The position numbers and the translations under genes were made by a program. Below, piece by piece: positions 12,183 to 49,137 of a stretch of 64,000 nt of DNA (position 1 is the stretch's first letter; each line of letters starts with the position of its first letter). Origin of the DNA: Escherichia coli (lineage in GTDB: Bacteria > Pseudomonadota > Gammaproteobacteria > Enterobacterales > Enterobacteriaceae); NCBI RefSeq assembly GCF_046105845.1, contig NZ_CP151004.1, one strand, 5' to 3'. The notes below the pieces were generated by a model. The model did not search any database. It was not told where the DNA came from and saw only the letters and a program-made list of their open reading frames with translations.

Positions 12183-12335
12183 GTTATTAACCTCCTAAAG
12201 CCTGGCGATAACACGATAATTTGCAAATCAGATATTTCCAATATCAGCATTTGTTATCAATTTATTCTGCGCTAAGGCAACTGCCTGATAAGGTGTTAGA
12301 GTTATAAAACCCTTCGCATAAAGGAGTTGTACACC

Positions 12336-13106
12336 GTGCCTGGTTTGAAGATTACGCTTTTACAGCAACCACTGGTGTGGATGGATGGTCCTGCCAACCT
12401 GCGTCATTTTGATCGTCAACTGGAAGGCATTACCGGGCGCGATGTGATCGTTCTACCGGAGATGTTTACCAGCGGCTTTGCCATGGAAGCGGCAGCTGCG
12501 TCGCTAGCACAAGATGACGTAGTGAACTGGATGACAGCCAAAGCGCAGCAGTGCAATGCGCTGATTGCAGGCAGTGTTGCATTACAAACGGAGTCTGGTT
12601 CGGTTAACCGCTTTTTGCTGGTTGAGCCGGGCGGCACGGTACATTTTTATGATAAGCGTCATCTGTTCCGCATGGCAGATGAGCATCTGCATTATAAAGC
12701 GGGCAATGCGCGAGTGATTGTGGAATGGCGCGGCTGGCGTATTTTGCCGCTGGTGTGCTACGACTTACGTTTTCCGGTGTGGTCGCGCAATCTCAACGAT
12801 TACGACCTCGCCCTGTACGTCGCCAACTGGCCTGCTCCGCGCTCTCTGCACTGGCAGGCATTGCTGACGGCCCGCGCGATTGAGAATCAAGCGTATGTGG
12901 CGGGATGCAATCGCGTCGGCAGCGATGGCAACGGCTGCCATTATCGCGGTGACAGCCGGGTGATTAATCCACAGGGCGAGATTATCGCCACCGCCGACGC
13001 GCATCAGGCAACGCGCATTGATGCGGAGCTGTCGATGGTGGCGTTGCGGGAGTATAGAGAAAAGTTTCCGGCATGGCGGGATGCGGATGAGTTTAGGTTG
13101 TGGTGA
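12336..13106 (+). CDS. yafV: Nitrilase-superfamily omega-amidase YafV
   Basis: Likely GTG start at 12336 (aaggag Shine-Dalgarno at 12321-12326) giving (M)PGLKITLLQQ...; carbon-nitrogen hydrolase fold. Confidence 0.85.
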   Translation: MPGLKITLLQQPLVWMDGPANLRHFDRQLEGITGRDVIVLPEMFTSGFAMEAAAASLAQDDVVNWMTAKAQQCNALIAGSVALQTESGSVNRFLLVEPGGTVHFYDKRHLFRMADEHLHYKAGNARVIVEWRGWRILPLVCYDLRFPVWSRNLNDYDLALYVANWPAPRSLHWQALLTARAIENQAYVAGCNRVGSDGNGCHYRGDSRVINPQGEIIATADAHQATRIDAELSMVALREYREKFPAWRDADEFRLW

Positions 13107-13162
13107 GTGGGTGTTGTGTTTAGGGCCGGGGAGAGTCGGGGTATGACTACGAAAGCCCCTAA

Positions 13163-13702
13163 CTTAAACACGATATTACGCCAGAAGTCACCATTTCCAA
13201 AACACAACGCCGTTGTACCGTGGGATATCTGCCCAACAGCAGCGACACGCCGGTGATCAAAATCAGCGCCAAATGGCTGAGAGAAGCGGGATTTGAGATC
13301 GGCACGGGCGTTACCGTGAAGATCCCGGAAGGTTGCCTGATCCTGCTTGCGGATAACAACGAAGTACAGGAACTGAGGAAGGAACTTTATAAGGTTAAAC
13401 AGGCTGTCTTCAATATAGAACCGGAGCGATTACGCCAGTCAGGATCTGACTTTAGTTGCCTTCTCTTTATTCTCATCATGGCTATTTGTTCTGCGGGATC
13501 AAGCTTTCCCTTTGCTATTCTCGCCTTCATATATTCAATTTGTTTCTCCAGATATGAAATCCCTGCCAGTGCGATGTGCTTCGGTATGTTCCATTTTTCA
13601 CGATATTCGTCAGCGCGTATTCCATGCACAAACCAGATATGGCGCGGTAAAAAAATGAGCAACTTGCCACACTCCAGACAGGGTATTTTTTCCCGCTTAT
13701 GA
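13163..13702 (+). CDS. SymE-family (type I toxin-like) ORF, possibly degenerate
   Basis: Residues TVGYLPNSSDTPVIKISAKWLREAGFEIGTGVTVKIPEGCLILLA align with E. coli SymE; no ATG (track start at 13220 is GTG; in-frame stop at 13160); the 3' ~250 nt lacks a stop only because it runs antisense to the MucR-like gene. Confidence 0.35.
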   Translation, partial: LKHDITPEVTISKTQRRCTVGYLPNSSDTPVIKISAKWLREAGFEIGTGVTVKIPEGCLILLADNNEVQELRKELYKVKQAVFNIEPERLRQSGSDFSCLLFILIMAICSAGSSFPFAILAFIYSICFSRYEIPASAMCFGMFHFSRYSSARIPCTNQIWRGKKMSNLPHSRQGIFSRL

Positions 13703-13758
13703 TATGCCAGAACCTCTTCACGCGTTTCGAATGGCCTGTTCCTCTCTTTTTTGTACAC
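13387..13758 (-). CDS. Ros/MucR-family zinc-finger DNA-binding protein (short form lacking the usual N-terminal domain)
   Basis: 123 aa ORF with CLECGKLLIFLPRHIWFVHGIRADEYREKWNIP, close to the Ros/MucR signature. Confidence 0.6.
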   Translation of the reverse strand: MYKKERNRPFETREEVLAYHKREKIPCLECGKLLIFLPRHIWFVHGIRADEYREKWNIPKHIALAGISYLEKQIEYMKARIAKGKLDPAEQIAMMRIKRRQLKSDPDWRNRSGSILKTACLTL

Positions 13759-13822
13759 AAAGACTCCTTTTAAAAAATGGCAAGGTCACATATCCCTTAT
13801 TGGTACATAAATCCCCCGACGT

Positions 13823-15199
13823 TTACTGACTTTGTTCCACCTTCGTATCCAGTAAAATTACATAGCGATTCAGCAACTGATTTAACCGGGTATCTATCTG
13901 CGTCAACAGCGTCGGCGAAACCTCTCCGGTCTGTTTTTGCTCTTCCAGTTGCCGAAGCAGTTCTTCCAGCGGCGGCTCCTTTAACGACTGCCGGATGCCG
14001 TACACCGCCGTTTTTAGTTCCGAGCCGGTCAGATATCTCCCCTTACGCTCATCCAGTGCATCCAGCTGCGCCGACAGGCGCTGTAGCTGGCTTTGCGCCT
14101 GTGCGTAGCCATTCAATGCCTCAGCAGACATGGCGCTCAGCTCCCGCTGCTTACGCCACTGCGCGTTCAGCGCCCTGACCTGAGGATTATCCGGCCACAG
14201 GGCATCAAGCTGGCGTAGCTGGCGATATCCCTGCTCCAGCGGCCAGCGGGCAGGCAATTTGTTTAACTGCTCCAGCTGCATCTGACTTGCCGCAATTGTT
14301 CTGTCCTGAGCCAGCAGCGCCTTATCCTTTACATCCAGCTTTGCCAGTTCGCCGCTCTCCAGCGACTGCGGCAACGGCATGACAGACAGTTGTATTCGCT
14401 GGATTAGCGCGTCCGGCTGATTAAGCTGCGACCAGCCCCATAATCCTGTTCCGCCGAGACAGGCCATCACAACCATTCCGGCCATAAATATCGGCCATGC
14501 CCGCTGCCGGGAGATTTCAGGGGATGGCACGGATGGACTGGCATCCTTATCGTTTTGCTGAGCGGGTCTGGTTGCAAAAACCGGCTGTGGACTTTCTTCT
14601 GACTTTTTCGGTTGCTTCATTTCCTTGCGGGGTAATTCAGGGGGAGTGATAGTGGTTTCCGCTCCCTGTGGTGCCAGCCGCTCCAGACGTAGCGCCGCAT
14701 TACGAAACTGCCCGGCCAGCACATCCAGTTTCGTCATATGCCACAGTTCACACTGTTGCAGCGTGGTTTCGATGGCGGAAAGATGCTGTACACAACGGTA
14801 AATCTGCGGCAGATCCTGATACTGAATATCCAGCGTTCTCAGTGCCTGCTGCATTTTTTCTGTGACCCAGCTGAGCAGTGATATTCTGGAATGTACCTGT
14901 ACCGGCCAGAAGTCGGCCCATCGCTGGAGCAGTATGTCCAGTGAACCGAGTCCGTCTGCCATCCCTGCCAGCCCCTGCCGTCTGGTTATCGCCAGTACGT
15001 AACAGACCAGCGTCTGTAATTCCACGCCATTTTGCCGGAACAGCGCGAGGCTGAGTTTTTCCACCTGACGCCAGTCCACATCCGGTCGGGCCGGGTGAGT
15101 CAGTTTACTCATTTCAGCCTGCAGTTCACCGGATTCCTTATAAGTACAGGGATCGCCGCCCATGACGAACTGGCTGATAAAATTCGCGTTACTTGCCAT
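13823..15199 (-). CDS. tagA: T6SS accessory protein with ImpA-like N-terminal domain (TagA-like)
   Basis: 458 aa; TssA/ImpA-like N-terminus, central hydrophobic segment (AWPIFMAGMVVMACLGGTGLWGW), coiled-coil C-terminus; last gene of the T6SS cluster. Confidence 0.55.
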   Translation of the reverse strand: MASNANFISQFVMGGDPCTYKESGELQAEMSKLTHPARPDVDWRQVEKLSLALFRQNGVELQTLVCYVLAITRRQGLAGMADGLGSLDILLQRWADFWPVQVHSRISLLSWVTEKMQQALRTLDIQYQDLPQIYRCVQHLSAIETTLQQCELWHMTKLDVLAGQFRNAALRLERLAPQGAETTITPPELPRKEMKQPKKSEESPQPVFATRPAQQNDKDASPSVPSPEISRQRAWPIFMAGMVVMACLGGTGLWGWSQLNQPDALIQRIQLSVMPLPQSLESGELAKLDVKDKALLAQDRTIAASQMQLEQLNKLPARWPLEQGYRQLRQLDALWPDNPQVRALNAQWRKQRELSAMSAEALNGYAQAQSQLQRLSAQLDALDERKGRYLTGSELKTAVYGIRQSLKEPPLEELLRQLEEQKQTGEVSPTLLTQIDTRLNQLLNRYVILLDTKVEQSQ

Positions 15200-18951: not shown

Positions 18952-19026
18952 CGGAGGATTTATCTTTCCTTTTATTGAAATTAATACCAACGAGTAGTGA
19001 GATTAGAATTTTTTATTTTCAGAATC

Positions 19027-19431
19027 CTAAGGACATATAGATGGATCATTTATTTCAAAAGAAAAATCGGACTCCATACTAGATGAGGATTTTTTCAATA
19101 AAGAGGAGATATGATATCCAGATAAAGTTTTAGAATTGTTACCATCAGATATCAAAATACTAAGTTCAGAAACAATATTTACAGGGTTTTTATTAAAAAC
19201 ATCTGACTCTCTACCTGTGTAAATAAAGTATACAATTGGCTTCCGCTCTCCGATATCAAGATGAAAATTATCTCTTACTTTACCATCATAATGTGTTGAA
19301 TTATTGACCGTCGAAATGTTAATAGATACTTTGCATGTATTTACCATGACAATGGAACAAGAATAGAATGGTTGAGATAAACATCCAGCACACAGCGTAC
19401 ATAATAAAAAAAAGAATATTAATCTAGTCAT
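19027..19431 (-). CDS. Small lipoprotein, candidate immunity protein for the upstream PAAR toxin
   Basis: 134 aa, lipoprotein signal MTRLIFFFLLCTLCAGC; 8-bp overlap with the PAAR-toxin gene; AT-rich. Confidence 0.5.
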   Translation of the reverse strand: MTRLIFFFLLCTLCAGCLSQPFYSCSIVMVNTCKVSINISTVNNSTHYDGKVRDNFHLDIGERKPIVYFIYTGRESDVFNKNPVNIVSELSILISDGNNSKTLSGYHISSLLKKSSSSMESDFSFEINDPSICP

Positions 19432-20863
19432 GAAATTTCACCCGAGATAACCATATCATTGCACATACATCGTTTTCGACAGCAACCGACCTTGCATATA
19501 GATCACTGGTGTATATATGCCCATTATAATATTTCATTAAATCTATCTCGCCAGTTCCTGGATAAACTGAATGAGGCAGTGCATATTGAGGTGGTACAAG
19601 ATTAGAGGTCCCTTTATGCTCCCATGAATACGTATTCCCACCGTAACTTTTTAATATCATATGACCAGTCTCATGGGCTACATCAAGTTTAAATTCTAAT
19701 CCAGCCTTAAAAACAGGATCCGCGCCTTTCTGATACCCACGGCCATATTCATAATACCCCCTATTGAAATAAATGTTCATACGTCCCATAAAAGCACTAG
19801 ACCTGACGCTTTCTAGATCTTGCTCCTCAATTAAATCAAAAGAATCCATGGCTGGATCAATATTTATTGATACAGAGATATTTACATTATATTTACCGTG
19901 CGGAGTAGTAATATTATTGCCAATTCCGGGATTCCTCATTCCATTTCGTGCCCAATAATACTCTATTCCATCCTTGGCAAGTTGCTTTAATTTTTCAAAC
20001 CCTACAGGTGCAATACGATCATCTTTATGACTCACACCATCATCTTCAAATTCTACTCGCCAACTGACATCAACTATTTTTTGATTCTTGTCTACTTTTA
20101 CATCAATCCAATCTTCCTCATTCGCAGAAGTTTTCAATGGATAATCAACTTTTATCATCATATCACCACATAAAGCAATCAGTCTTACGAGTAGTGATTT
20201 GCTTTTTAGCTTAGTTGTATCCAGTATGTCTTGATTACTGTAGCCATCCCATTGCCAGGCATGCTCTCCCTTATCAAAATATTTACCGGTCTGCTGTTCA
20301 CTATAAATCACTTCATTACCATCAAGCACTTCCAGAGAAAGCGCTTCAGCCTCATCGCCTTTATTTGTGATGGTAAAATCTATTTTTTCTGTATTCTTCG
20401 TACTACCACCGCTAATCATTTCTTTATAATCAGGTATATTCAATGGCGTCAGTATCTTATTACCTGATAATTTAATTCTGTAATCCAGTTTTACATCATC
20501 TGAGGATGAATCAGAACCAGAAGTCAGATCCTTTTTCGCCGACTGCGCATGTTGTTCCGCTTCACTTCCCCCGTCATCCGTCTCATACACATCATCCATC
20601 ATTGACGCAATAAATCGCGCCTTACACGGGCAACTGCTCTGACTGTCCAGCGATCCCGCCATCAGCCTGCCGTGAATATCCGTTTCCGGCACGCCGCCGA
20701 CGATAATAAACATCCCCGAATGTTTACCGCAGGTCACTCTGTCCATATCCCGCGCCTGCGGGATACCCATGATCGTATGGTCGTCCGCCCCTTCAATAAT
20801 TTTGCCGCCGCAGGTGGTCTTATCGCCCCTGACCAGAAAATAGCCTCTTCCCATCGTCATCAC
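19424..20863 (-). CDS. PAAR-domain T6SS effector with C-terminal HExxH (zinc-metallopeptidase-like) domain
   Basis: 479 aa; N-terminal PAAR-like region (GDKTTCGGKIIEGADDHT...VTCGKHSG...IIVGG), acidic/Ser-rich linker, C-terminal domain with VAHETGHM; AT-rich C-terminal half. Confidence 0.65.
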   Translation of the reverse strand: MMTMGRGYFLVRGDKTTCGGKIIEGADDHTIMGIPQARDMDRVTCGKHSGMFIIVGGVPETDIHGRLMAGSLDSQSSCPCKARFIASMMDDVYETDDGGSEAEQHAQSAKKDLTSGSDSSSDDVKLDYRIKLSGNKILTPLNIPDYKEMISGGSTKNTEKIDFTITNKGDEAEALSLEVLDGNEVIYSEQQTGKYFDKGEHAWQWDGYSNQDILDTTKLKSKSLLVRLIALCGDMMIKVDYPLKTSANEEDWIDVKVDKNQKIVDVSWRVEFEDDGVSHKDDRIAPVGFEKLKQLAKDGIEYYWARNGMRNPGIGNNITTPHGKYNVNISVSINIDPAMDSFDLIEEQDLESVRSSAFMGRMNIYFNRGYYEYGRGYQKGADPVFKAGLEFKLDVAHETGHMILKSYGGNTYSWEHKGTSNLVPPQYALPHSVYPGTGEIDLMKYYNGHIYTSDLYARSVAVENDVCAMIWLSRVKFHD

Positions 20864-22497
20864 TCCTTATGCTGCGTATCACACAGTACCGCTGCCCGTA
20901 CCGGATCGATTGTCACCAGCGTTCCCAGCAGGATTTCCATTTTTCGGTTCAGCAGGGCTTTATCCGCATAGCGGTGCGCCCGCAGGCGCAGCAGTTTCAG
21001 TTGCCGGGCTTTTACCTCAAACAGCAGTTCCGGCTCCCACTGCGTCAGCGTTATTCCCTGTGCGGCGGTATCCAGTTCTTCCAGCAGCAGGAGTGCCATC
21101 TCGTTTTTACCGTACTGTTCCGCCACCCGCGCCATCAGCAGCCGCAATAACAGGCGCTGTCGTGCCGTGGTGATGCCCGGACGGGTCTGTATCCAGCCCA
21201 GCGCCGCTTCCACGCCCTGACTGTCTGCCATCTCCAGTGCTTCCGGCTCCAGCGCCAGTACGTCATTTGTGGCGTCGTCTGTCGGTACAGCGGCTTTCCC
21301 CGCAAGCCATGCGCCGTCTTCCCGCATCATGACCTGCTGCGCTATCCAGTTGCGCGTCACCTCATCGGCGAACGGTGTGCCGTCGTTCCATGCCAGATTT
21401 TCCAGCCCCGGCAGGCGTTCCAGCAGTAACGCCAAGTCCTGACGGATAACGGCTGTCCACCTGTCCCACGGTACGCCCGCCTTAGTCAGCGCCTGATGCA
21501 GATACCACTGAATGTCCAGCCAGAAATGGCTGACGCCGGTGCTGAACATCAGGTCGGCCTGCTCCAGCAGTTCCGTCCAGTTCTGCTGGGCATACAGCCG
21601 CTTAAGCTGATTGCGTGACTCGGTGCGCGGCGGGGCCAGCCGGGTTTTGCCGTCCACATCCGGCGGCAGTTCATGCACCGTGTCCCAGCGCAGGGTTTTC
21701 ATCAGCCGGTGCGCCGAAAGCCAGCCCTGCGGCTGTTCATTCAGATAACGGGCCAGCACTTTCGCCTGGTCGAGCAGGTCACGCCCGGAGGTGATGGTCT
21801 GTACCTGTGGCGCATCCACCGGGGATGACGGTGCAGGAACGCTGCTGCTGTTTTGCGGCACCACTGCGTTCATCCCTCCCGACTGCGCCAGACGCGATTC
21901 CAGCGCGTTAATCAGCGGCATCAGGGAGGGGGAATGCTGGTCTTCGGGCCATGCAGTGAAGGAAACCGTCAACTGACTGAGGGCAGCAACAATGTTCGCA
22001 AAATCCTCTTTTGCCACTTCCGGGTAGCGGGCAAGGCTGTCGAGCATCTTTTCCCCCGCCAGCCACTCCAGCGCCATTTTCCGGCTGGCCGGTCGCGAGG
22101 GCAGCAGTTGCGTACCGAAGCGTTCCACCAGTCCGGTCAGCAGCGCCAGTCCTTCCGCCAGTCCGCGCTCACCGTCGCGGTGCAGTCGCGCCCAGATGTA
22201 GTAAGTGGCGATGCGCACGTCTTTTGCCTGCGTCAGCAGCAGGGATTCGGCAAGCTGGCAGATGAGGTCCGTATCCGCGCCGGAAAGTTTGTTCATCTCG
22301 TCGCGGATACGCAGAAAATCGTCGTGGTAGCCGGGGTCTTCCCCGACCGGCGTATCTGTCGTCACCGGCAGCAGCCATGTCTGCCACAGTGCCGCCTGTG
22401 CTCGCGCCACATCCAGTGCATCCCGGTCGGCAAAACAGCTACGGGTCAGCTTTTGCAACAGTTCACTCATCGGCGTCTTCCCCGTATTCTTCCGCAT
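20860..22497 (-). CDS. tssA: T6SS protein TssA (ImpA-family cap protein)
   Basis: About 536-545 aa (possible start at MSELLQKL); TssA-like; immediately downstream of tssM. Confidence 0.8.
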   Translation of the reverse strand: MRKNTGKTPMSELLQKLTRSCFADRDALDVARAQAALWQTWLLPVTTDTPVGEDPGYHDDFLRIRDEMNKLSGADTDLICQLAESLLLTQAKDVRIATYYIWARLHRDGERGLAEGLALLTGLVERFGTQLLPSRPASRKMALEWLAGEKMLDSLARYPEVAKEDFANIVAALSQLTVSFTAWPEDQHSPSLMPLINALESRLAQSGGMNAVVPQNSSSVPAPSSPVDAPQVQTITSGRDLLDQAKVLARYLNEQPQGWLSAHRLMKTLRWDTVHELPPDVDGKTRLAPPRTESRNQLKRLYAQQNWTELLEQADLMFSTGVSHFWLDIQWYLHQALTKAGVPWDRWTAVIRQDLALLLERLPGLENLAWNDGTPFADEVTRNWIAQQVMMREDGAWLAGKAAVPTDDATNDVLALEPEALEMADSQGVEAALGWIQTRPGITTARQRLLLRLLMARVAEQYGKNEMALLLLEELDTAAQGITLTQWEPELLFEVKARQLKLLRLRAHRYADKALLNRKMEILLGTLVTIDPVRAAVLCDTQHKE

Positions 22498-25900: not shown

Positions 25901-27066
25901 GAATAATGTCCACCCTGAACGCCGCTGAGCGTCAGTTGGGGTTGTTGTAAATGCACTGACGCCAGCGCCGCAGCGGCGACGGACAGCCACGGCGCAGCCG
26001 GGCCGGAGCGCCCCAGAAAGGCATCCAGCTCGTACATCAGGGCTTCCTGAGCAAACGGCTGGTTCAGGCTTAACAACGCGGCACGCTGTTCCCTGTCCAG
26101 TTCGGCAGTCCACATGCCGGATATTGCATCTGGCTGCACCGGCATCCAGTCCAGCGCCTGTGCAATGCCTGACACCATCATCTCTGTATCAGTGATACGT
26201 TCAGGACGATGCAGCAGGGCCAGCGGCGTCAGCGCGGTTTGCGTCAACCGGTTTGCCAGCAACAGCGCGGTGGCGGATTCTGCCGTCCGTTCCGGGTTCT
26301 TCGGTTCAAGTCGTACGGAAATCACCAGCAGTACGGCCTTTTCCTGAATAAAGTTGTCCAGCCAGTCGTCCACGGCGGCCAGCCCCGGCTCCGGGGCAGA
26401 AAACAGACGGGCTTCCGGGAGTCCGGCTTTTTGCCATTCGTCCTGCCAGATAGCCATAACCGTTGACTCAGAAAGCGACGTACTGGTTTCTAAAAGCACG
26501 TTGATATGAAAATCATCGGGTAGCAGCGTCAGTTGCAGCCTGATATCGCTGAACAGACGGGAAAAAACTTCGGATAGACGTCCGGTAACCGGTTTATTGG
26601 TTAATACAGGGATGACACTGCGACGCACAGTATCTTCTCCGCGCAAATCAGCGTAAGTATTCAACACCTGCTGACGCGCCAGAAATGCTGTTGTAGTTTC
26701 TGCAACGGAATCACCATTCAGCGCGGTTTGTACGGAAAAACTGAGTATCTGCAACGCCCGTCGTCCCCGTCGCGTTTCCTGCAAAATCACCTCTTCCCGG
26801 CGCTTATTCCAGGCATCAGCCCGAATGTACTGCGTGATAAAAAACAGCCAGCGAACTGAAGCAACCAGCGACCAGATAAAGGCAGGCACACCACAGGCCA
26901 GCCCCCAGAAATACGGGCCGTTTTTTGCCAGTTCATCGCTGGCAAATAATGAAGTCAGGGCCACACCTGTGGACAGCATCAGTAATAAGGCTGACAGCCA
27001 TTTAATGCGGGCTGGCGGTGTGGGATAGGGTTCTGCGTCGGGAATGGCATGGAGTCGAACAGGCAT
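25852..27066 (-). CDS. Hypothetical inner-membrane protein (two N-terminal transmembrane helices) upstream of tssM
   Basis: 404 aa; hydrophobic segments LSALLLMLSTGVALTSLFA and GLACGVPAFIWSLVASVRWLFFI; GC-rich like the T6SS core; no family recognised. Confidence 0.5.
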   Translation of the reverse strand: MPVRLHAIPDAEPYPTPPARIKWLSALLLMLSTGVALTSLFASDELAKNGPYFWGLACGVPAFIWSLVASVRWLFFITQYIRADAWNKRREEVILQETRRGRRALQILSFSVQTALNGDSVAETTTAFLARQQVLNTYADLRGEDTVRRSVIPVLTNKPVTGRLSEVFSRLFSDIRLQLTLLPDDFHINVLLETSTSLSESTVMAIWQDEWQKAGLPEARLFSAPEPGLAAVDDWLDNFIQEKAVLLVISVRLEPKNPERTAESATALLLANRLTQTALTPLALLHRPERITDTEMMVSGIAQALDWMPVQPDAISGMWTAELDREQRAALLSLNQPFAQEALMYELDAFLGRSGPAAPWLSVAAAALASVHLQQPQLTLSGVQGGHYSWATVVSPFVLPQEAS

Positions 27067-27126
27067 AAAAATAATCCGCTATTAAATTAGGTATATGATG
27101 TGGTTATATCCCGCTTTTCGATTAAA

Positions 27127-27504
27127 TTACTCTGATACATTTATGGTATATATTTTGCCAAACCGTCCTCTGCCACCACCACCTATGGAGAATCCTCCGA
27201 TTTCAATGACTATCGCCCCTTTTACAACAGGGATACCCTGAACAATAAGGCAACTATTTTGGTCTGGCTCAAAAACATCAATAGTCAAACCCGAATTCTC
27301 AGGCCTGAAATCTTTCAATGGAAAAAAAGGTACAGGCCCAACTCCTCCTGAAATCTCGATTTTTGCATAGTAACTCTGACCTAATTTTGCATCAGGCAAG
27401 GAGTCTGGGGAAACAGTAGTTTTTGGGATGATTAGCATATGTAAACATCCAGTTAGTGATATTGATAATGAACATATGAGTAAAAATTGAATTGTCTTTT
27501 TCAT
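27127..27504 (-). CDS. Small lipoprotein (candidate immunity protein)
   Basis: 125 aa; MKKTIQFLLICSLSISLTGC lipobox; AT-rich; in the cargo block downstream of the second vgrG. Confidence 0.5.
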   Translation of the reverse strand: MKKTIQFLLICSLSISLTGCLHMLIIPKTTVSPDSLPDAKLGQSYYAKIEISGGVGPVPFFPLKDFRPENSGLTIDVFEPDQNSCLIVQGIPVVKGAIVIEIGGFSIGGGGRGRFGKIYTINVSE

Positions 27505-28397
27505 GACTTGTTAGTGTCAATGTCAATATAAACCTGATTGGATCTAATGTTAAATTTATCTTCAAGTTTTTCACCCGACATATCAAGATTTAGCAGTAAT
27601 TTTTTAATTCCATCGTCGTTATTATCACCTAAGCATGAATTATCTGGTTCGAGGTGGCTATTATCTTTATTAAAGAAGCATATGTATTTCTGGCTCAATA
27701 GATTAAACATTTTTTTATAGATGCGCTGCCGAACAAGCCATTGTTCATTGACAAACGGATATTCAAGAGTACCTACCTTGTAACGCCGTAAGCCCGGCGG
27801 AAAAGCATATAAAGATTTATTCAAATAAATACTGACAACATACTTTTCCCCGGATTTAATCTCGAACCAGTTTCCAGAATCAGGATCGTCATCATAGCCA
27901 TTACAAAATGAACCCAGAAAATCCAGTCTTGAGTTATCAGTAATAATAAGAAAGTCTTGTTTACATGATGAGGTATATGCCATGTCTTGTTTATTTTTTT
28001 TAAAAAAAGTCAGAAAAATATCAGGAAGATAGAATGAATGGTGGCTTTTATTTTCAAATTCTATAGTCATTACAACTTCTTTTTTAGATTTTTGCTCTGC
28101 AAATAAACGGATAAACATGTTGATTTCAGACTGTAGCTTTTTATTTTCTTTATCATCCAATAAGTATCCTGGTGAGAGGAAAACATACTTCTCATCATCA
28201 CGTAATGGATAAAAAAAAGGTGAGTCAGTTACTATTCTGCTTTCCCCATAACCATAACCATACTTCTTAAAAACCAGTAAGTCATCGGCAATTGAATTAA
28301 GTGAAAACAGCAATAAGAAACAAAAAATTGCATAATTAATAAATTTACTAAATGTATGCAAAATAACCTCCTTCAATAAAAAATCAAAAAAAAACAC
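27501..28397 (-). CDS. Hypothetical exported protein (candidate immunity protein)
   Basis: 298 aa; N-terminal hydrophobic signal-like segment (YAIFCFLLLFSLNSIADD); very AT-rich; 4-bp overlap with the downstream lipoprotein gene. Confidence 0.45.
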   Translation of the reverse strand: MFFFDFLLKEVILHTFSKFINYAIFCFLLLFSLNSIADDLLVFKKYGYGYGESRIVTDSPFFYPLRDDEKYVFLSPGYLLDDKENKKLQSEINMFIRLFAEQKSKKEVVMTIEFENKSHHSFYLPDIFLTFFKKNKQDMAYTSSCKQDFLIITDNSRLDFLGSFCNGYDDDPDSGNWFEIKSGEKYVVSIYLNKSLYAFPPGLRRYKVGTLEYPFVNEQWLVRQRIYKKMFNLLSQKYICFFNKDNSHLEPDNSCLGDNNDDGIKKLLLNLDMSGEKLEDKFNIRSNQVYIDIDTNKS

Positions 28398-28448
28398 AAG
28401 TTACATTTTACTCTAAATATAACTTGATTGATTAACAATTAAAGAAGA

Positions 28449-29252
28449 TTACTCGGGTGGTGGTGGGGGATTATTATCAACTATAATTTTTAAATCCTTA
28501 CTCATGTCCTCTTCCACAGATTTTTTTATATCTATTAAAATCTCTTCATTCAGAGCTATCTGAAAATATTTCTCAACATTATAAGCACTTCTGAAAACGG
28601 CCTGATTGTGTTGACTAACCATTGTTTTTGCAGCAGCCAAATGAGCATCACCACTCATAAATGCCGGTTTCCCTTGCGCATTCATATCATGTGTGCTCAT
28701 TCCACCACCAATACCACCTTTGCCGGTCCTACAAAAATGAGACATTTCATGACACAGCGTTGAAACCTGAGAATCAACACCACATAATGGTTTGTCCTTA
28801 AACTTTCCAGCTATAAAAATATGATAATCTTTATCAATAAATTCATTAACTCTGGCAGTGAAATTCCCACATACCGTATTATTAATATAATAGCAAGTTA
28901 ACACTCCATCCTTATCATATCTGAACATTTGATTATGAATTGTTTTAATCCTCTTGATACCATCCTGCATTATTAACAATGCAGTCTGTTTAGTTTCATC
29001 ATCATCTCCTATCAATTCATCACCTTTGGTGCCAAATATTTTATAAAACTCGCTTATCTCTTTTTCCTTCCCCCCCTTATTCCAACCCTCAAGAGAATGT
29101 TCGCGAATCTCAAGAACTTTTTCTTGGGCTTTGTGTGCTCGTAATATCATCTCTTTAAATTTATTAGTAATAACAACTTCAGCGACACAAATCTCTACAG
29201 TAGCTGGAGCTGGAGCTGGCTTGCCGTTTGATATTTTATTTCCCATATACAT
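28449..29252 (-). CDS. Candidate T6SS effector with HExxH metallopeptidase-like motif
   Basis: 267 aa; LCHEMSHF motif; Pro/Ala-rich ends; 7 bp downstream of vgrG copy B; AT-rich. Confidence 0.5.
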   Translation of the reverse strand: MYMGNKISNGKPAPAPATVEICVAEVVITNKFKEMILRAHKAQEKVLEIREHSLEGWNKGGKEKEISEFYKIFGTKGDELIGDDDETKQTALLIMQDGIKRIKTIHNQMFRYDKDGVLTCYYINNTVCGNFTARVNEFIDKDYHIFIAGKFKDKPLCGVDSQVSTLCHEMSHFCRTGKGGIGGGMSTHDMNAQGKPAFMSGDAHLAAAKTMVSQHNQAVFRSAYNVEKYFQIALNEEILIDIKKSVEEDMSKDLKIIVDNNPPPPPE

Positions 29253-29258
29253 TCCCTG

Positions 29259-45045: not shown

Positions 45046-45657
45046 CAGGAGTGCGAGATAATCACGCGTGTGACTATCCCATAAGGATTATGACTATATA
45101 AAGATAAAAAACAAGAACAAATATAGAGACAGAAATATCATTTATAATTGCTGTGAATAATTATACGTCTATCTCGAAATTATATTATTTGAGAACATCA
45201 TCCCATTTTTAGGCGTTTTAGCTGTTAAGCAGACGGTTAAACCTATACATGTGTATACATGCATGAAAATACTGAAAAACAACAAGATCCACATCACAAA
45301 AATTTATTTTTCAGAATGACGGAATTCATGTTTTTTTCGCAAATTATTCACCATGCAAATATTTAATTTTTTTCATGCTTAATAAAATATGATGTTTACT
45401 CATATGCCAACTATGCTACCTGTTGACGCCACACACCAATACACAAAACAAATGCAACAATCACAAACCATAAAAATAAAATATGATTTAGCTATAGTTA
45501 TCAACAAAATAACATCACCACCATTTATAATTTTACTATTGATAAAAAATAGAAACTACGATAAATAATAAAGCATTACTTACCAATCATTCTTTTAAAT
45601 GATTCTGGAATGCAGTCTCCACTGCATAATTGGGCTGTGTTTTTTAAGGAGCAAGTA
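45046..45657. promoter_or_regulatory. About 600 bp AT-rich divergent intergenic region: T6SS (tssB) promoter region and promoter of the 313-aa gene
   Basis: Strongly AT-rich; contains a GATC site (around 45287-45290) and AT-rich Fur-box-like stretches; in the EAEC sci-1 cluster Fur/Dam control is established. Confidence 0.4.
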
Positions 45658-47719: not shown

Positions 47720-47916
47720 CGGGATGGCCAGATTTGCGCCGGTGATATATTCAATGCCTCCGCAATCAACCGCTCACCTTTCGGCCAGTGGCTCCTGAGT
47801 GCATTTGCCAGCGTACCGGAGGCCAGCCCGGCTTTGCGGGAAACCGCTGCCAGCGACGTTCCCTGTTTTTTCAGTGCCGCGATAATATCTGCGGGGTGCC
47901 AGTCCTGCTGCATCAT
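47659..47916 (-). CDS. Ner/Nlp-family small DNA-binding protein
   Basis: From MMQQDWHPADIIAALKKQGTSLAAVSRKAGLASGTLANAL...; Ner-like helix-turn-helix; start overlaps the integrase stop. Confidence 0.55.
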   Translation of the reverse strand: MMQQDWHPADIIAALKKQGTSLAAVSRKAGLASGTLANALRSHWPKGERLIAEALNISPAQIWPSRYRWAESTLSVLLIIPVSSS

Positions 47917-49137
47917 ACTGCCCTCCCACAAACCAGCCGTTCGGACGGGATACCACATACACGCTGGCTCCACCACGCCATCACGTCGGTTCTCTGCTCA
48001 AGATAGGTCGAGCGGTTATAAGCGGCGCGCGTCTGATTAGTATCCGCATGAGCCAGTACAGCTTCTATCACATCAGGGGAAAATCCGGCCTCATTCAGCG
48101 TGGTGCTACCCAGCGCCCGGAAACCATGTGACACCAGCTCCCCGCAATACCCCATACGCCGTAGTGCCTTATTGACCGTTTCGCTATTCATTGGTTGCGA
48201 GGGCTTAACCCGACCCGGAAACAGGAACGGCGAGTGTCCACTTATCGGTTTAAGTTGCTCCAGTATCCACAGCATTTCATCAGTCAGGGGCACCAGATGC
48301 TCACGGCGTTTTTTCATACGCTCAGCCGGAATAGTCCATAGCTTTTTCTCCGTATCAATCTCACGCCACATGGTGCCTGACGCTTCTCCGGGGCGCACCA
48401 GCGTCAGCAACTGCCACTTAATCAGATAACGAGTCATCAGCGATAGATTGGTGGTTTCAATCCGCTGTACCAGCTCCGGCAGGCGTTCCGGGCGGATAGA
48501 CGCCATATGCTGTTTTTTCGGCTTCTCAAAGACCTTACCGATGGTCGAGGCTGGATTCGCATCAAGCAGGCCGGAATTGACAGCAAATACCATCACTTCG
48601 TTGATACGCTGGGTTAGACGACGCAGGGTTTCCAGCGCACCTCGTGCCCGGACCGGCTCAAGGGCGGCAATCAGAGTATGTGCTTTCAATTCAGCTACCG
48701 GCATCTGTCCGATTGACGGAAGAACATCCCGTTCCATCGAACGCCAGATATCATCTGCATGCACTTCTGAAATGCCACTGGTCTTTTTAATAGCAAACCA
48801 TCTTGTCGCCACATTGATAAACAGGCTGTCGATTGCTTTCTTTTCCTGTTCTGCGGCTTCCTGCTCCAGCTTTTTCGGATCTACACCCTGAGCCAGCAGA
48901 CCAAGATATTCATCATGTACTGCGGGCAGCAGCAAGAGTTACAGCAGGATAATAACCCAGCGTGATATTGGTACGGGCAGTGGAGTTTGGACGCTGGTAA
49001 CGAAAACGCCAGATTTTCTTCCCGGAAGTACGAACAGAAAGCGTCAGACCATGCCCGTCAGGCAGGTCGTAATCTTTATCGGCGGGTTTTGCTTTTTGTA
49101 CTGCGGCAGCAGTCAGCAGGCGGCGGGTAATGGTCAT
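47913..49137 (-). pseudogene. int: P4-type tyrosine integrase, interrupted by a frameshift
   Basis: N-terminal 74-aa ORF (48913..49137, arm-binding-like domain) and C-terminal 340-aa ORF (47913..48935, catalytic domain) lie in different frames with a junction near 48915-48935. Confidence 0.8.

What the first reader, a model, noticed from the sequence alone, without database searches (positions are those of the whole stretch)
13163..13758. Truncated Ros/MucR-like zinc-finger gene overlapping a SymE-like toxin remnant at the island edge
A 123-aa protein carries the Ros/MucR zinc-finger signature (CLECGK...RH...H...EYREKW) but lacks the long N-terminal oligomerisation region of classical MucR. 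MucR-type proteins silence AT-rich horizontally acquired DNA in alpha-proteobacteria, so one at the edge of a T6SS island suggests an island-encoded regulator of the cluster. On the opposite strand a SymE-like toxin ORF without an ATG start converges on and overlaps it.
Basis: partly seen in the sequence, partly recalled or inferred. Interest (0 to 1): 0.55.

Follow-up and report, generated by a model that had tools for sequence, protein, structure and literature searches.

The report
Deletion scar joining two gene remnants
At the yafV edge of an E. coli type VI secretion (T6SS) island, one deletion or recombination junction fused the front part of a SymE-like toxin gene to the front part of a MucR-type zinc-finger regulator gene, so the "overlapping convergent genes" are two truncated remnants, not a designed gene pair.

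Summary
Both sequence observations are real, but the anatomy was misread.

- **MucR-like ORF.** ORF 13387..13758 (-), 123 aa, has a significant Ros/MucR zinc-finger domain (Pfam E 1.8e-11; PDB Ros87 E 1e-12).
- **SymE-like frame.** The + frame from 13163 carries a SymE_toxin domain (Pfam E 1e-12).
- **Junction.** Both genes are cut at their 3' ends at one point, 13407/13408. Left of it the DNA is 99.3% identical to a yafV–SymE locus. Right of it, 98.7% identical to the mucR–vasL end of a T6SS cluster.
- **What mucR lost.** The intact E. coli orthologue is 182 aa: zinc finger plus a conserved C-terminal helix-turn-helix. The window copy keeps residues 1–117 and has no HTH. The missing N-terminal MucR oligomerisation region is a trait of the whole family, not the truncation.
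- **What SymE lost.** The SymE-like gene loses its last 15 codons and its stop. It then reads for 98 codons through the antisense of mucR'.
- **Reality of the junction.** It occurs in at least 14 independent contigs but in none of 5,426 complete E. coli genomes.
- **Regulator idea.** Full-length ZnF–HTH genes stay next to T6SS clusters in E. coli, Salmonella, Cronobacter, Lelliottia and two further contigs from metagenomic/read-archive (Logan) data. A regulatory role for the family is plausible but untested. This copy is probably crippled.

Interest is low to moderate.

The parts
12327..13106 (+). yafV (2-oxoglutaramate amidase), the core-genome gene flanking the island
   Evidence: NCBIfam NF007757 E 8e-165. 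Annotated yafV in syntenic E. coli loci.
13163..13407 (+). SymE-like toxin gene remnant. The frame is open from 13163. Possible starts are ATT 13193 or GTG 13220, as PGAP uses in intact copies. Homology ends at 13407, after codon 62 of the 77-aa form.
   Evidence: Pfam SymE_toxin E 1e-12. Window 13000-13407 is 99.3% identical to ETEC1738 yafV–SymE. The alignment shows divergence after ...CAGGCTGT. The intact genes are 77 or 86 aa.
13408..13702 (+). Read-through tail of the SymE' ORF: 98 codons with no SymE homology, being the antisense of mucR'
   Evidence: The SymE stop codon and last 15 codons are missing, and the next in-frame stop is at 13700-13702.
13407..13408 (.). Illegitimate-recombination or deletion junction with 1-2 nt of microhomology
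   Evidence: The BLAST segments abut at 13407. Base-by-base comparison. The same junction is present in 8 retrieved independent contigs, 99.7-100% identical.
13387..13758 (-). mucR' ORF, 123 aa. 13408-13758 are codons 1-117 of the 182-aa ZnF–HTH regulator. 13387-13407 are 6 foreign codons (TACLTL) plus a stop supplied by SymE-derived DNA.
   Evidence: Pfam ROS_MUCR E 1.8e-11. Comparison with the full-length orthologue. Strong Shine-Dalgarno: AAGGAG, 5 nt, GTG.
13823..15199 (-). VasL/ImpA_N-domain T6SS protein, the gene immediately upstream of mucR in all E. coli and Salmonella copies
   Evidence: NCBIfam TssA-related hit. PGAP 'VasL domain-containing protein'. Pfam ImpA_N+VasL.
13190..13445 (-). 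Stretch homologous to the 3' ~245 nt of the Shigella sRNA Ssr1 and to Salmonella isrA, antisense to the SymE-like remnant. Both matches are below gathering score.
   Evidence: Rfam RF02627 192.9 bits (GA 820) and RF01385 31.8 bits (GA 51). An intact SymE-like locus gives a similar partial Ssr1 match.
45046..45609 (-). AT-rich (28.5% GC) region upstream of tssB. It is a candidate target of a MucR-type AT-rich DNA binder. This is inference only.
   Evidence: GC computed. In Cronobacter, Lelliottia and the metagenome/Logan contigs the ZnF–HTH gene is divergent from tssB across an equally AT-rich spacer.

Best explanation
The 13.16-13.76 kb segment is a recombination or deletion scar at the yafV edge of an aspV-linked T6SS island.

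Shown:
- One illegitimate junction at 13407/13408, with 1-2 nt of microhomology, joins two genes that faced each other.
- One is a SymE-family toxin gene that normally follows yafV. It is cut after codon 62 of 77.
- The other is the terminal gene of the T6SS cluster, a 182-aa Ros/MucR-zinc-finger plus helix-turn-helix protein. It is cut after codon 117.
- Each remnant borrows its 3' end from the antisense of the other. That produces the apparent convergent overlap.

Inferred:
- mucR' keeps its Shine-Dalgarno, its start codon and the whole zinc-finger DNA-binding domain. It lacks the conserved HTH, so it is most likely a crippled or inactive regulator.
- SymE' has no ATG, no Shine-Dalgarno, and a 98-residue nonsense tail. 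It is most likely an unexpressed pseudogene.
- The intact ZnF–HTH family is probably a DNA-binding regulator tied to T6SS clusters, possibly acting on AT-rich promoter DNA such as the tssB upstream region. It would act through two DNA-binding modules, not through MucR-like oligomerisation.
For: - Junction: window 13000-13407 is 99.3% identical to ETEC1738 yafV–SymE. Window 13407-14100 is 98.7% identical to E24377A mucR–vasL. The two segments abut (base-level view).
- Full-length orthologue: 182 aa, ROS_MUCR 20-79 plus HTH_23 141-181. An AlphaFold model (pLDDT 89) shows three C-terminal helices. Its best fold hits are Ros87, then small HTH domains.
- The C-terminal domain is conserved in 14 homologues and under purifying selection.
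- Intact SymE-like genes of 77/86 aa follow yafV in other strains.
- The junction is real: the exact 123-aa protein with a yafV neighbour occurs in at least 14 contigs from NCBI, ENA and Logan, with 0-9 mismatches per ~3.5 kb.
- mucR has been truncated independently at two other breakpoints: about 27 codons left in the O158:H23 aspV island, and about 10 codons left in ST131/B2 strains.
- T6SS linkage of full-length genes.
Against: - No expression data exist, so mucR' could still be made (strong SD) and bind DNA like the isolated Ros87 domain.
- The SymE' remnant retains the entire Pfam SymE_toxin domain, model positions 1-52 of 54, so residual activity is not excluded.
- No ancestral arrangement with intact SymE and intact mucR side by side at yafV was found. 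Whether the event was an in-situ deletion or an illegitimate end-join during island replacement is therefore unresolved.
- The regulatory role of the family rests only on gene neighbourhood. One homologue, P0025, is not next to a T6SS.
Confidence: 0.85

Rival explanations
1. One reading: a functional short MucR-type silencer encoded at the island edge regulates the T6SS cluster, and the converging SymE-like ORF or transcript forms a sense/antisense regulatory pair with it.
For: The zinc-finger domain is intact and significant. The SD and start are intact and the gene is co-oriented with the T6SS genes. The family is T6SS-linked across genera. Known sRNAs (Ssr1, isrA) map antisense to SymE-like genes.
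Against: The overlap exists only because of the junction at 13407; in intact loci the two genes are never adjacent. The conserved HTH domain is deleted. The N-terminal oligomerisation region needed for H-NS-like silencing is absent from the whole family. About 1,100 E. coli genomes keep the T6SS with mucR almost entirely deleted.
Confidence: 0.12
2. The junction is an assembly chimera or misjoin, not a biological feature.
For: None of 5,426 complete E. coli genomes spans the junction.
Against: The identical 123-aa ORF next to yafV was recovered from at least 14 contigs of independent projects (NCBI GCA_044249515.1, GCA_023859905.1, ENA, several Logan runs). They carry small sequence differences, 0-9 mismatches.
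Confidence: 0.02
3. The ZnF–HTH gene is not a T6SS regulator but a mobile-element function, such as a transposase-like or transfer-gene regulator, that hitch-hikes at island and plasmid edges. Its loss here would be irrelevant to the T6SS.
For: The C-terminal domain resembles IS-type HTH domains: HTH_23 E 4e-4, PF01527 on P0024, fold hits TnpE and Cgl2762. About 42%-identical homologues sit after trbC on 249 conjugative plasmids and in an ICE-like contig. The gene always lies at the cluster edge and is frequently eroded.
Against: In the clade at 52% identity or more, the gene stays with the T6SS although its position switches: after vasL in some genomes, divergent from tssB in others. This holds on chromosomes and on a plasmid. 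That pattern is more typical of a functional partner.
Confidence: 0.3

Closest known systems
Ros/MucR prokaryotic Cys2His2 zinc-finger regulators of alpha-proteobacteria (Pfam PF05443; Ros87 structure 2JSP)
   Same: Same DNA-binding zinc-finger domain with CX2CX9HX4H spacing and the EYREKW motif. Significant by HMM, and Ros87 is the top fold match.
   Different: There is no N-terminal oligomerisation region: the match starts at model position 60 of 123. The intact family carries an extra C-terminal HTH domain. It is found in Enterobacteriaceae next to T6SS clusters or on conjugative plasmids, not as a chromosomal global silencer. The window copy is also truncated.
E. coli 'MucR family transcriptional regulator' WP_000276887.1 (182 aa) at the amiC–vasL end of the T6SS cluster
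   Same: Orthologous. Codons 1-117 differ by 3 nonsynonymous and 1 synonymous changes, with the same upstream vasL gene and intergenic region.
   Different: The window copy lacks residues 118-182 (the HTH). It lies at the yafV/aspV locus instead of amiC and ends in six foreign codons.
SymE type I toxin (E. coli K-12 SymE/SymR) and the short SymE-family genes that follow yafV or Rhs arrays
   Same: SymE_toxin (AbrB-like) domain. 99.7% DNA identity to an annotated 77-aa SymE-family gene over 13107-13407.
   Different: Scores far below the NCBIfam SymE equivalog cut-off. The C-terminal 15 residues and the stop are lost. No LexA box was found. No SymR match; only partial sub-threshold matches to Ssr1 and isrA on the antisense strand.
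Shigella sRNA Ssr1 (RF02627; PMC4782007) and Salmonella isrA (RF01385)
   Same: The minus strand at 13190-13445 aligns to the 3' third of Ssr1 and to isrA. Ssr1 was mapped between an Rhs gene and SF0269 in S. flexneri.
   Different: Scores are well below gathering thresholds, and about 400 nt of the Ssr1 model are absent. This shows shared SymE-like DNA, not a demonstrated sRNA gene here.

Membership tests
Ros/MucR (PF05443) | Significant match to the zinc-finger DNA-binding domain | tested here: met
   Pfam E 1.8e-11, residues 20-79. Family profile against Ros87 2JSP, E 9.9e-13.
Ros/MucR (PF05443) | Cys2His2 zinc ligands with CX2CX9HX4H spacing | tested here: met
   C27, C30, H40 and H45 in the ORF are invariant in 15 homologues and align to the Ros87 ligands.
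Ros/MucR (PF05443) | N-terminal oligomerisation region (model positions ~1-59) that underlies H-NS-like silencing | tested here: not met
   The match starts at model position 60, and only 19 residues precede the domain. This holds for both the truncated and the full-length protein.
Ros/MucR (PF05443) | Binds and represses AT-rich foreign DNA | not testable with these tools
   Only the AT-richness of the tssB upstream region could be shown (28.5% GC).
Enterobacterial T6SS-linked ZnF–HTH protein (WP_000276887.1 group) | Orthology and position directly downstream of vasL | tested here: met
   98.7% DNA identity across mucR'–vasL, with the same gene order.
Enterobacterial T6SS-linked ZnF–HTH protein (WP_000276887.1 group) | Conserved C-terminal helix-turn-helix domain (residues ~130-181) | tested here: not met
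   The ORF diverges after residue 117 and stops at residue 123. The HTH is seen only in full-length copies.
SymE type I toxin | SymE_toxin / AbrB-like domain | tested here: met
   PF08845 E 1e-12, model positions 1-52 of 54.
SymE type I toxin | Reaches the curated NCBIfam SymE equivalog score | tested here: not met
   36.5 bits against a cut-off of 132. RefSeq names intact copies only 'SymE family'.
SymE type I toxin | Complete reading frame with its own stop codon | tested here: not met
   The last 15 codons and the stop are replaced at 13407.
SymE type I toxin | Cis-antisense RNA (SymR-like) and SOS (LexA) control | tested here: inconclusive
   No CTG-N10-CAG LexA box in 12900-13900. The antisense strand gives sub-threshold Ssr1 and isrA matches. 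No transcript data.
Ssr1 sRNA (RF02627) | Rfam gathering score | tested here: not met
   192.9 bits against GA 820. Only the 3' ~245 nt of a 654-nt model align.

The most novel reading that the evidence does not exclude
The Ros/MucR-zinc-finger plus HTH proteins found at the ends of enterobacterial T6SS clusters, with relatives on IncL/M-type conjugative plasmids, could be an uncharacterised class of element-encoded regulators or counter-silencers. They would control the AT-rich T6SS promoters. The three independent natural truncations, including the ZnF-only 123-aa form in this window, would then be natural hypomorphic or dominant-negative alleles that re-tune T6SS expression in particular E. 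coli lineages.
Probability: 0.25. Interest if true: 0.55.

Novelty: new variant of a known kind. Interest (0 to 1): 0.3.

Why it matters
For this window it mainly corrects the annotation. The two "genes" are remnants joined by one deletion junction and should not be read as an antisense toxin/regulator module.

The broader point is modest but usable. A MucR-type zinc finger fused to an HTH, without the MucR oligomerisation domain, tracks T6SS clusters across Enterobacteriaceae. I found no paper describing it. If it regulates T6SS expression, naturally truncated or deleted alleles would help explain strain-to-strain differences in T6SS activity in E. coli.

Tried and rejected
- **att repeat.** I searched for a direct repeat of the tRNA-Asp 3' end at the yafV edge. 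Only the two tRNA genes themselves matched.
- **LexA box.** A search for CTG-N10-CAG near the SymE-like gene found none.
- **Promoters and terminators.** The scan of 12.9-14.1 kb gave counts no higher than shuffled controls.
- **PADLOC.** The SymE-like protein, its neighbouring small ORFs and the full-length MucR gave no hits.
- **NCBIfam on mucR'.** No family matched.
- **Rfam at gathering threshold on intact SymE loci.** No Ssr1 hit. Only partial sub-threshold matches appeared, so I did not claim an sRNA gene.
- **Shared operator upstream of tssB.** I aligned the E. coli region with the Cronobacter-type clusters. There was no convincing common motif, only shared AT-richness.
- **Literature.** Searches for MucR + T6SS + E. 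coli, MucR + pOXA-48, and MucR + gammaproteobacteria + plasmid returned nothing on this protein. The EnrR and SrpA papers that came up are unrelated.
- **Ancestral arrangement.** I looked for intact SymE and intact mucR together at yafV. No such arrangement turned up in the loci inspected.
- **Assembly artefact.** Rejected because the junction recurs in independent assemblies.

Full report
**Setting.** The window is an Escherichia coli-type chromosome segment. The gene order is dinB … yafL–dpaA–yafJ–lpcA–fadE–ivy–yafV, then a roughly 36-kb T6SS island (13.1–49.4 kb), then tRNA-Asp (aspV)–dnaQ–rnhA … dkgB–tRNA-Asp (aspU)–rRNA operon. The order matches annotated syntenic loci. The finding lies exactly at the yafV edge of the island.

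**Observation: the MucR-like ORF.** ORF 13387..13758 (-) encodes 123 aa containing CLECGKLLIFLPRHIWFVHGIRADEYREKW. Pfam gives ROS_MUCR at E 1.8e-11, residues 20-79 against model positions 60-119 of 123. A profile of the family hits the Ros87 NMR structure 2JSP at E 9.9e-13, and the four zinc ligands align. RefSeq annotates the orthologue as 'MucR family transcriptional regulator'.

**Observation: the SymE-like ORF.** On the + strand the frame is open from 13163 to 13702. It has no ATG, and GTG 13220 is the first start codon. It hits Pfam SymE_toxin at E 1e-12. It also hits NCBIfam SymE at E 3.5e-9, but at 36.5 bits this is far below the equivalog cut-off of 132.

**Anatomy: one junction, two truncated genes.**
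- BLAST against two reference loci splits the region cleanly. Window 13000–13407 is 99.3% identical to the yafV–SymE locus of strain ETEC1738. Window 13407–14100 is 98.7% identical to the mucR–vasL end of the T6SS cluster of E24377A. The two segments abut.
- At base level the sequence reads …CAGGCTGT|CTTCAATATAG…, with only 1–2 nt shared by both parents. This is the signature of illegitimate recombination or deletion.
- In intact loci the SymE-family gene is 77 aa (GTG start) or 86 aa (ATT start, as annotated by PGAP). It ends …KQAVKGMRDGMFSVLNES*. The window copy stops being SymE after …KQAV. It loses 15 codons and the stop, then runs 98 more codons through the antisense of mucR'.
- The lack of an ATG is a trait of all copies at this locus, not a sign of decay.
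- The intact mucR orthologue is 182 aa. The window copy matches residues 1–117, with 3 nonsynonymous and 1 synonymous differences from E24377A. It then acquires six foreign codons (TACLTL) and a stop from SymE-derived DNA.

**What was lost from the regulator.**
- The full-length protein has ROS_MUCR (20–79) plus a C-terminal HTH_23 match (141–181, E 4e-4).
- The AlphaFold model built on 18 homologues is confident (mean pLDDT 89) and shows a three-helix C-terminal module.
- Foldseek ranks Ros87 first. Small HTH domains follow (PefI, IS-type TnpE and Cgl2762, DeoR DBD), none individually significant.
- The C-terminal block (IW-KSP-IK…ELK-EAI-RM…LY-W) is conserved in all 14 full-length homologues aligned.
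- Both halves evolve under purifying selection: dN/dS is 0.09–0.19 overall and 0.16–0.24 for the C-terminal half.
- So the real truncation is C-terminal and removes a conserved domain.
- The absence of the classical N-terminal MucR region is a property of the whole family, because the Pfam match begins at model position 60. Oligomerisation is one of the features MucR/Ros shares with the silencer H-NS (PMC8857273). The family therefore probably does not work as a MucR-type xenogeneic silencer.

**Is the junction real?**
- No complete E. coli genome out of 5,426 spans it.
- However, the exact 123-aa protein, with vasL on one side and yafV on the other, is on at least 14 contigs from independent NCBI, ENA and Logan assemblies.
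- Eight retrieved contigs are 99.7–100% identical to the window across the junction, with 0–9 mismatches.
- It is an inherited allele of a minor lineage, not an assembly artefact.

**Edge erosion is recurrent.**
- The same T6SS cluster occurs at several chromosomal sites:
  - between amiC and the rest of the cluster, with intact mucR; 246 genomes carry the full-length gene, and every such locus inspected was at this site;
  - next to dkgB/aspU, with an 86%-identical intact allele;
  - in a PTS/MalY metabolic island in ST131 and other B2 strains;
  - at aspV–yafV (and this window).
- mucR is cut at three different points: codon 117 here, about codon 27 next to an ISAs1 fragment in O158:H23, and about codon 10 in ST131-type strains.
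- Roughly 1,100 genomes keep the cluster with essentially no mucR.
- mucR therefore looks like the ancestral terminal gene of the cluster, and it is dispensable for retaining the cluster.

**Is the family a T6SS regulator?**
- Gene neighbourhood gives moderate support.
- In E. coli and Salmonella (77% identity) the gene directly follows vasL.
- In Cronobacter turicensis (57%), on a Lelliottia plasmid (53%) and on two contigs from metagenomic/Logan data (53–56%), it sits at the other end of the cluster. There it is divergent from tssB across an AT-rich spacer of about 400 bp (32–37% GC).
- A gene that keeps its association while changing position is more likely a functional partner.
- Counter-points: one 54%-identical homologue has no T6SS neighbour. 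The next clade, at about 42% identity, lies after trbC on 249 conjugative (for example IncL/M) plasmids and in an ICE-like contig. The wider family is therefore 'mobile-element regulator', not T6SS-specific.
- I found no paper on this protein.

**Mechanism, with confidence.**
- The scar origin is shown (confidence about 0.85).
- Inferred: mucR' may still be transcribed and translated from the T6SS operon, because it has AAGGAG, a 5-nt spacer and GTG. It retains a Ros87-like DNA-binding domain. Lacking the second DNA-binding module, it is most likely inactive or hypomorphic.
- Inferred: SymE' lacks an ATG and an SD and carries a long, partly hydrophobic nonsense tail. It is most likely silent.
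- Minus-strand transcription running out of mucR' would be antisense to SymE'. That strand shows partial, sub-threshold homology to the Shigella sRNA Ssr1 and to Salmonella isrA. Ssr1 was mapped beside an Rhs gene in S. flexneri (PMC4782007). This suggests that antisense transcripts of SymE-like genes are a general feature of these islands. It does not establish an sRNA gene here.

**Verdict.** The domain observations are confirmed. The structural interpretation (N-terminally short but otherwise whole regulator, deliberately overlapping a toxin remnant) is not. The 'island-encoded regulator' idea is plausible for the intact family and unlikely for this copy. The interest of the locus itself is low. 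The uncharacterised T6SS-linked ZnF–HTH family raises it to about 0.3.

Noticed in passing
L023:6001-8608 (E. coli GCA_043343895.1): Another E. coli carries the same T6SS with an intact, 86%-identical MucR–HTH gene next to dkgB/yafC (the aspU side). It is followed by a solo Cas1 gene (PF01867, 273 aa) and an AcrVA2-like gene. A Cas1-solo/anti-CRISPR-like pair at a T6SS island edge is unusual.
   Followed up: no
window 13190-13445 (-): Partial, sub-gathering Rfam matches to Shigella Ssr1 (192.9 bits) and Salmonella isrA (31.8 bits), antisense to the SymE-like remnant. An intact SymE-like locus (L003:5084-5525) gives the same kind of match. These published sRNAs may therefore be antisense transcripts of SymE-like genes.
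   Followed up: partly
L028:4977-5486 and 249 conjugative plasmids: ZnF+HTH homologues at about 42% identity lie immediately after trbC on IncL/M-type conjugative plasmids of Klebsiella, Enterobacter, E. coli and Citrobacter. They are annotated only as 'MucR family transcriptional regulator'.
   Followed up: partly
L021:7184-7780, L029:6638-7252, L034:3181-3669: A DUF2913 gene follows the MucR–HTH gene in each of three loci with the tssB-divergent arrangement (L021, L029, L034) but not in the Cronobacter loci. It may be a partner gene.
   Followed up: no
window 13640-13830 compared with L005 and L006: There are three independent 3' truncations of mucR at the island edge in different E. coli lineages: codon 117 here, about codon 27 beside an ISAs1 fragment, and about codon 10 in ST131/B2.
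   Followed up: yes
window 47913-48935 (-): An integrase-domain ORF lies next to tRNA-Asp (aspV). It matches only positions 80-394 of the 413-position NF007246 model and scores just under its cut-off, so it is probably N-terminally truncated. No tRNA-derived direct repeat was found at the far (yafV) edge.
   Followed up: partly
window 13110-13124 / 13197-13211: A 15-nt inverted repeat (87% complementary, 72 nt apart) brackets the region just upstream of the SymE-like start codons. It could fold in the 5' leader.
   Followed up: no
window 19000-20900, 27000-29300, 32000-33300: Low-GC (0.32-0.37) blocks inside the T6SS island hold ORFs with no NCBIfam match. They lie beside the tssA gene (20860-22497) and the two ~830-aa ORFs (29259-31760, 33296-35785) placed like the Vgr genes of the related clusters, and are likely effector/immunity cargo.
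   Followed up: no
window 45046-45609: The region upstream of tssB is only 28.5% GC and is nearly identical in the O158:H23 aspV island. The equivalent spacers in Cronobacter-type clusters are also AT-rich, but share no clear motif with it.
   Followed up: partly
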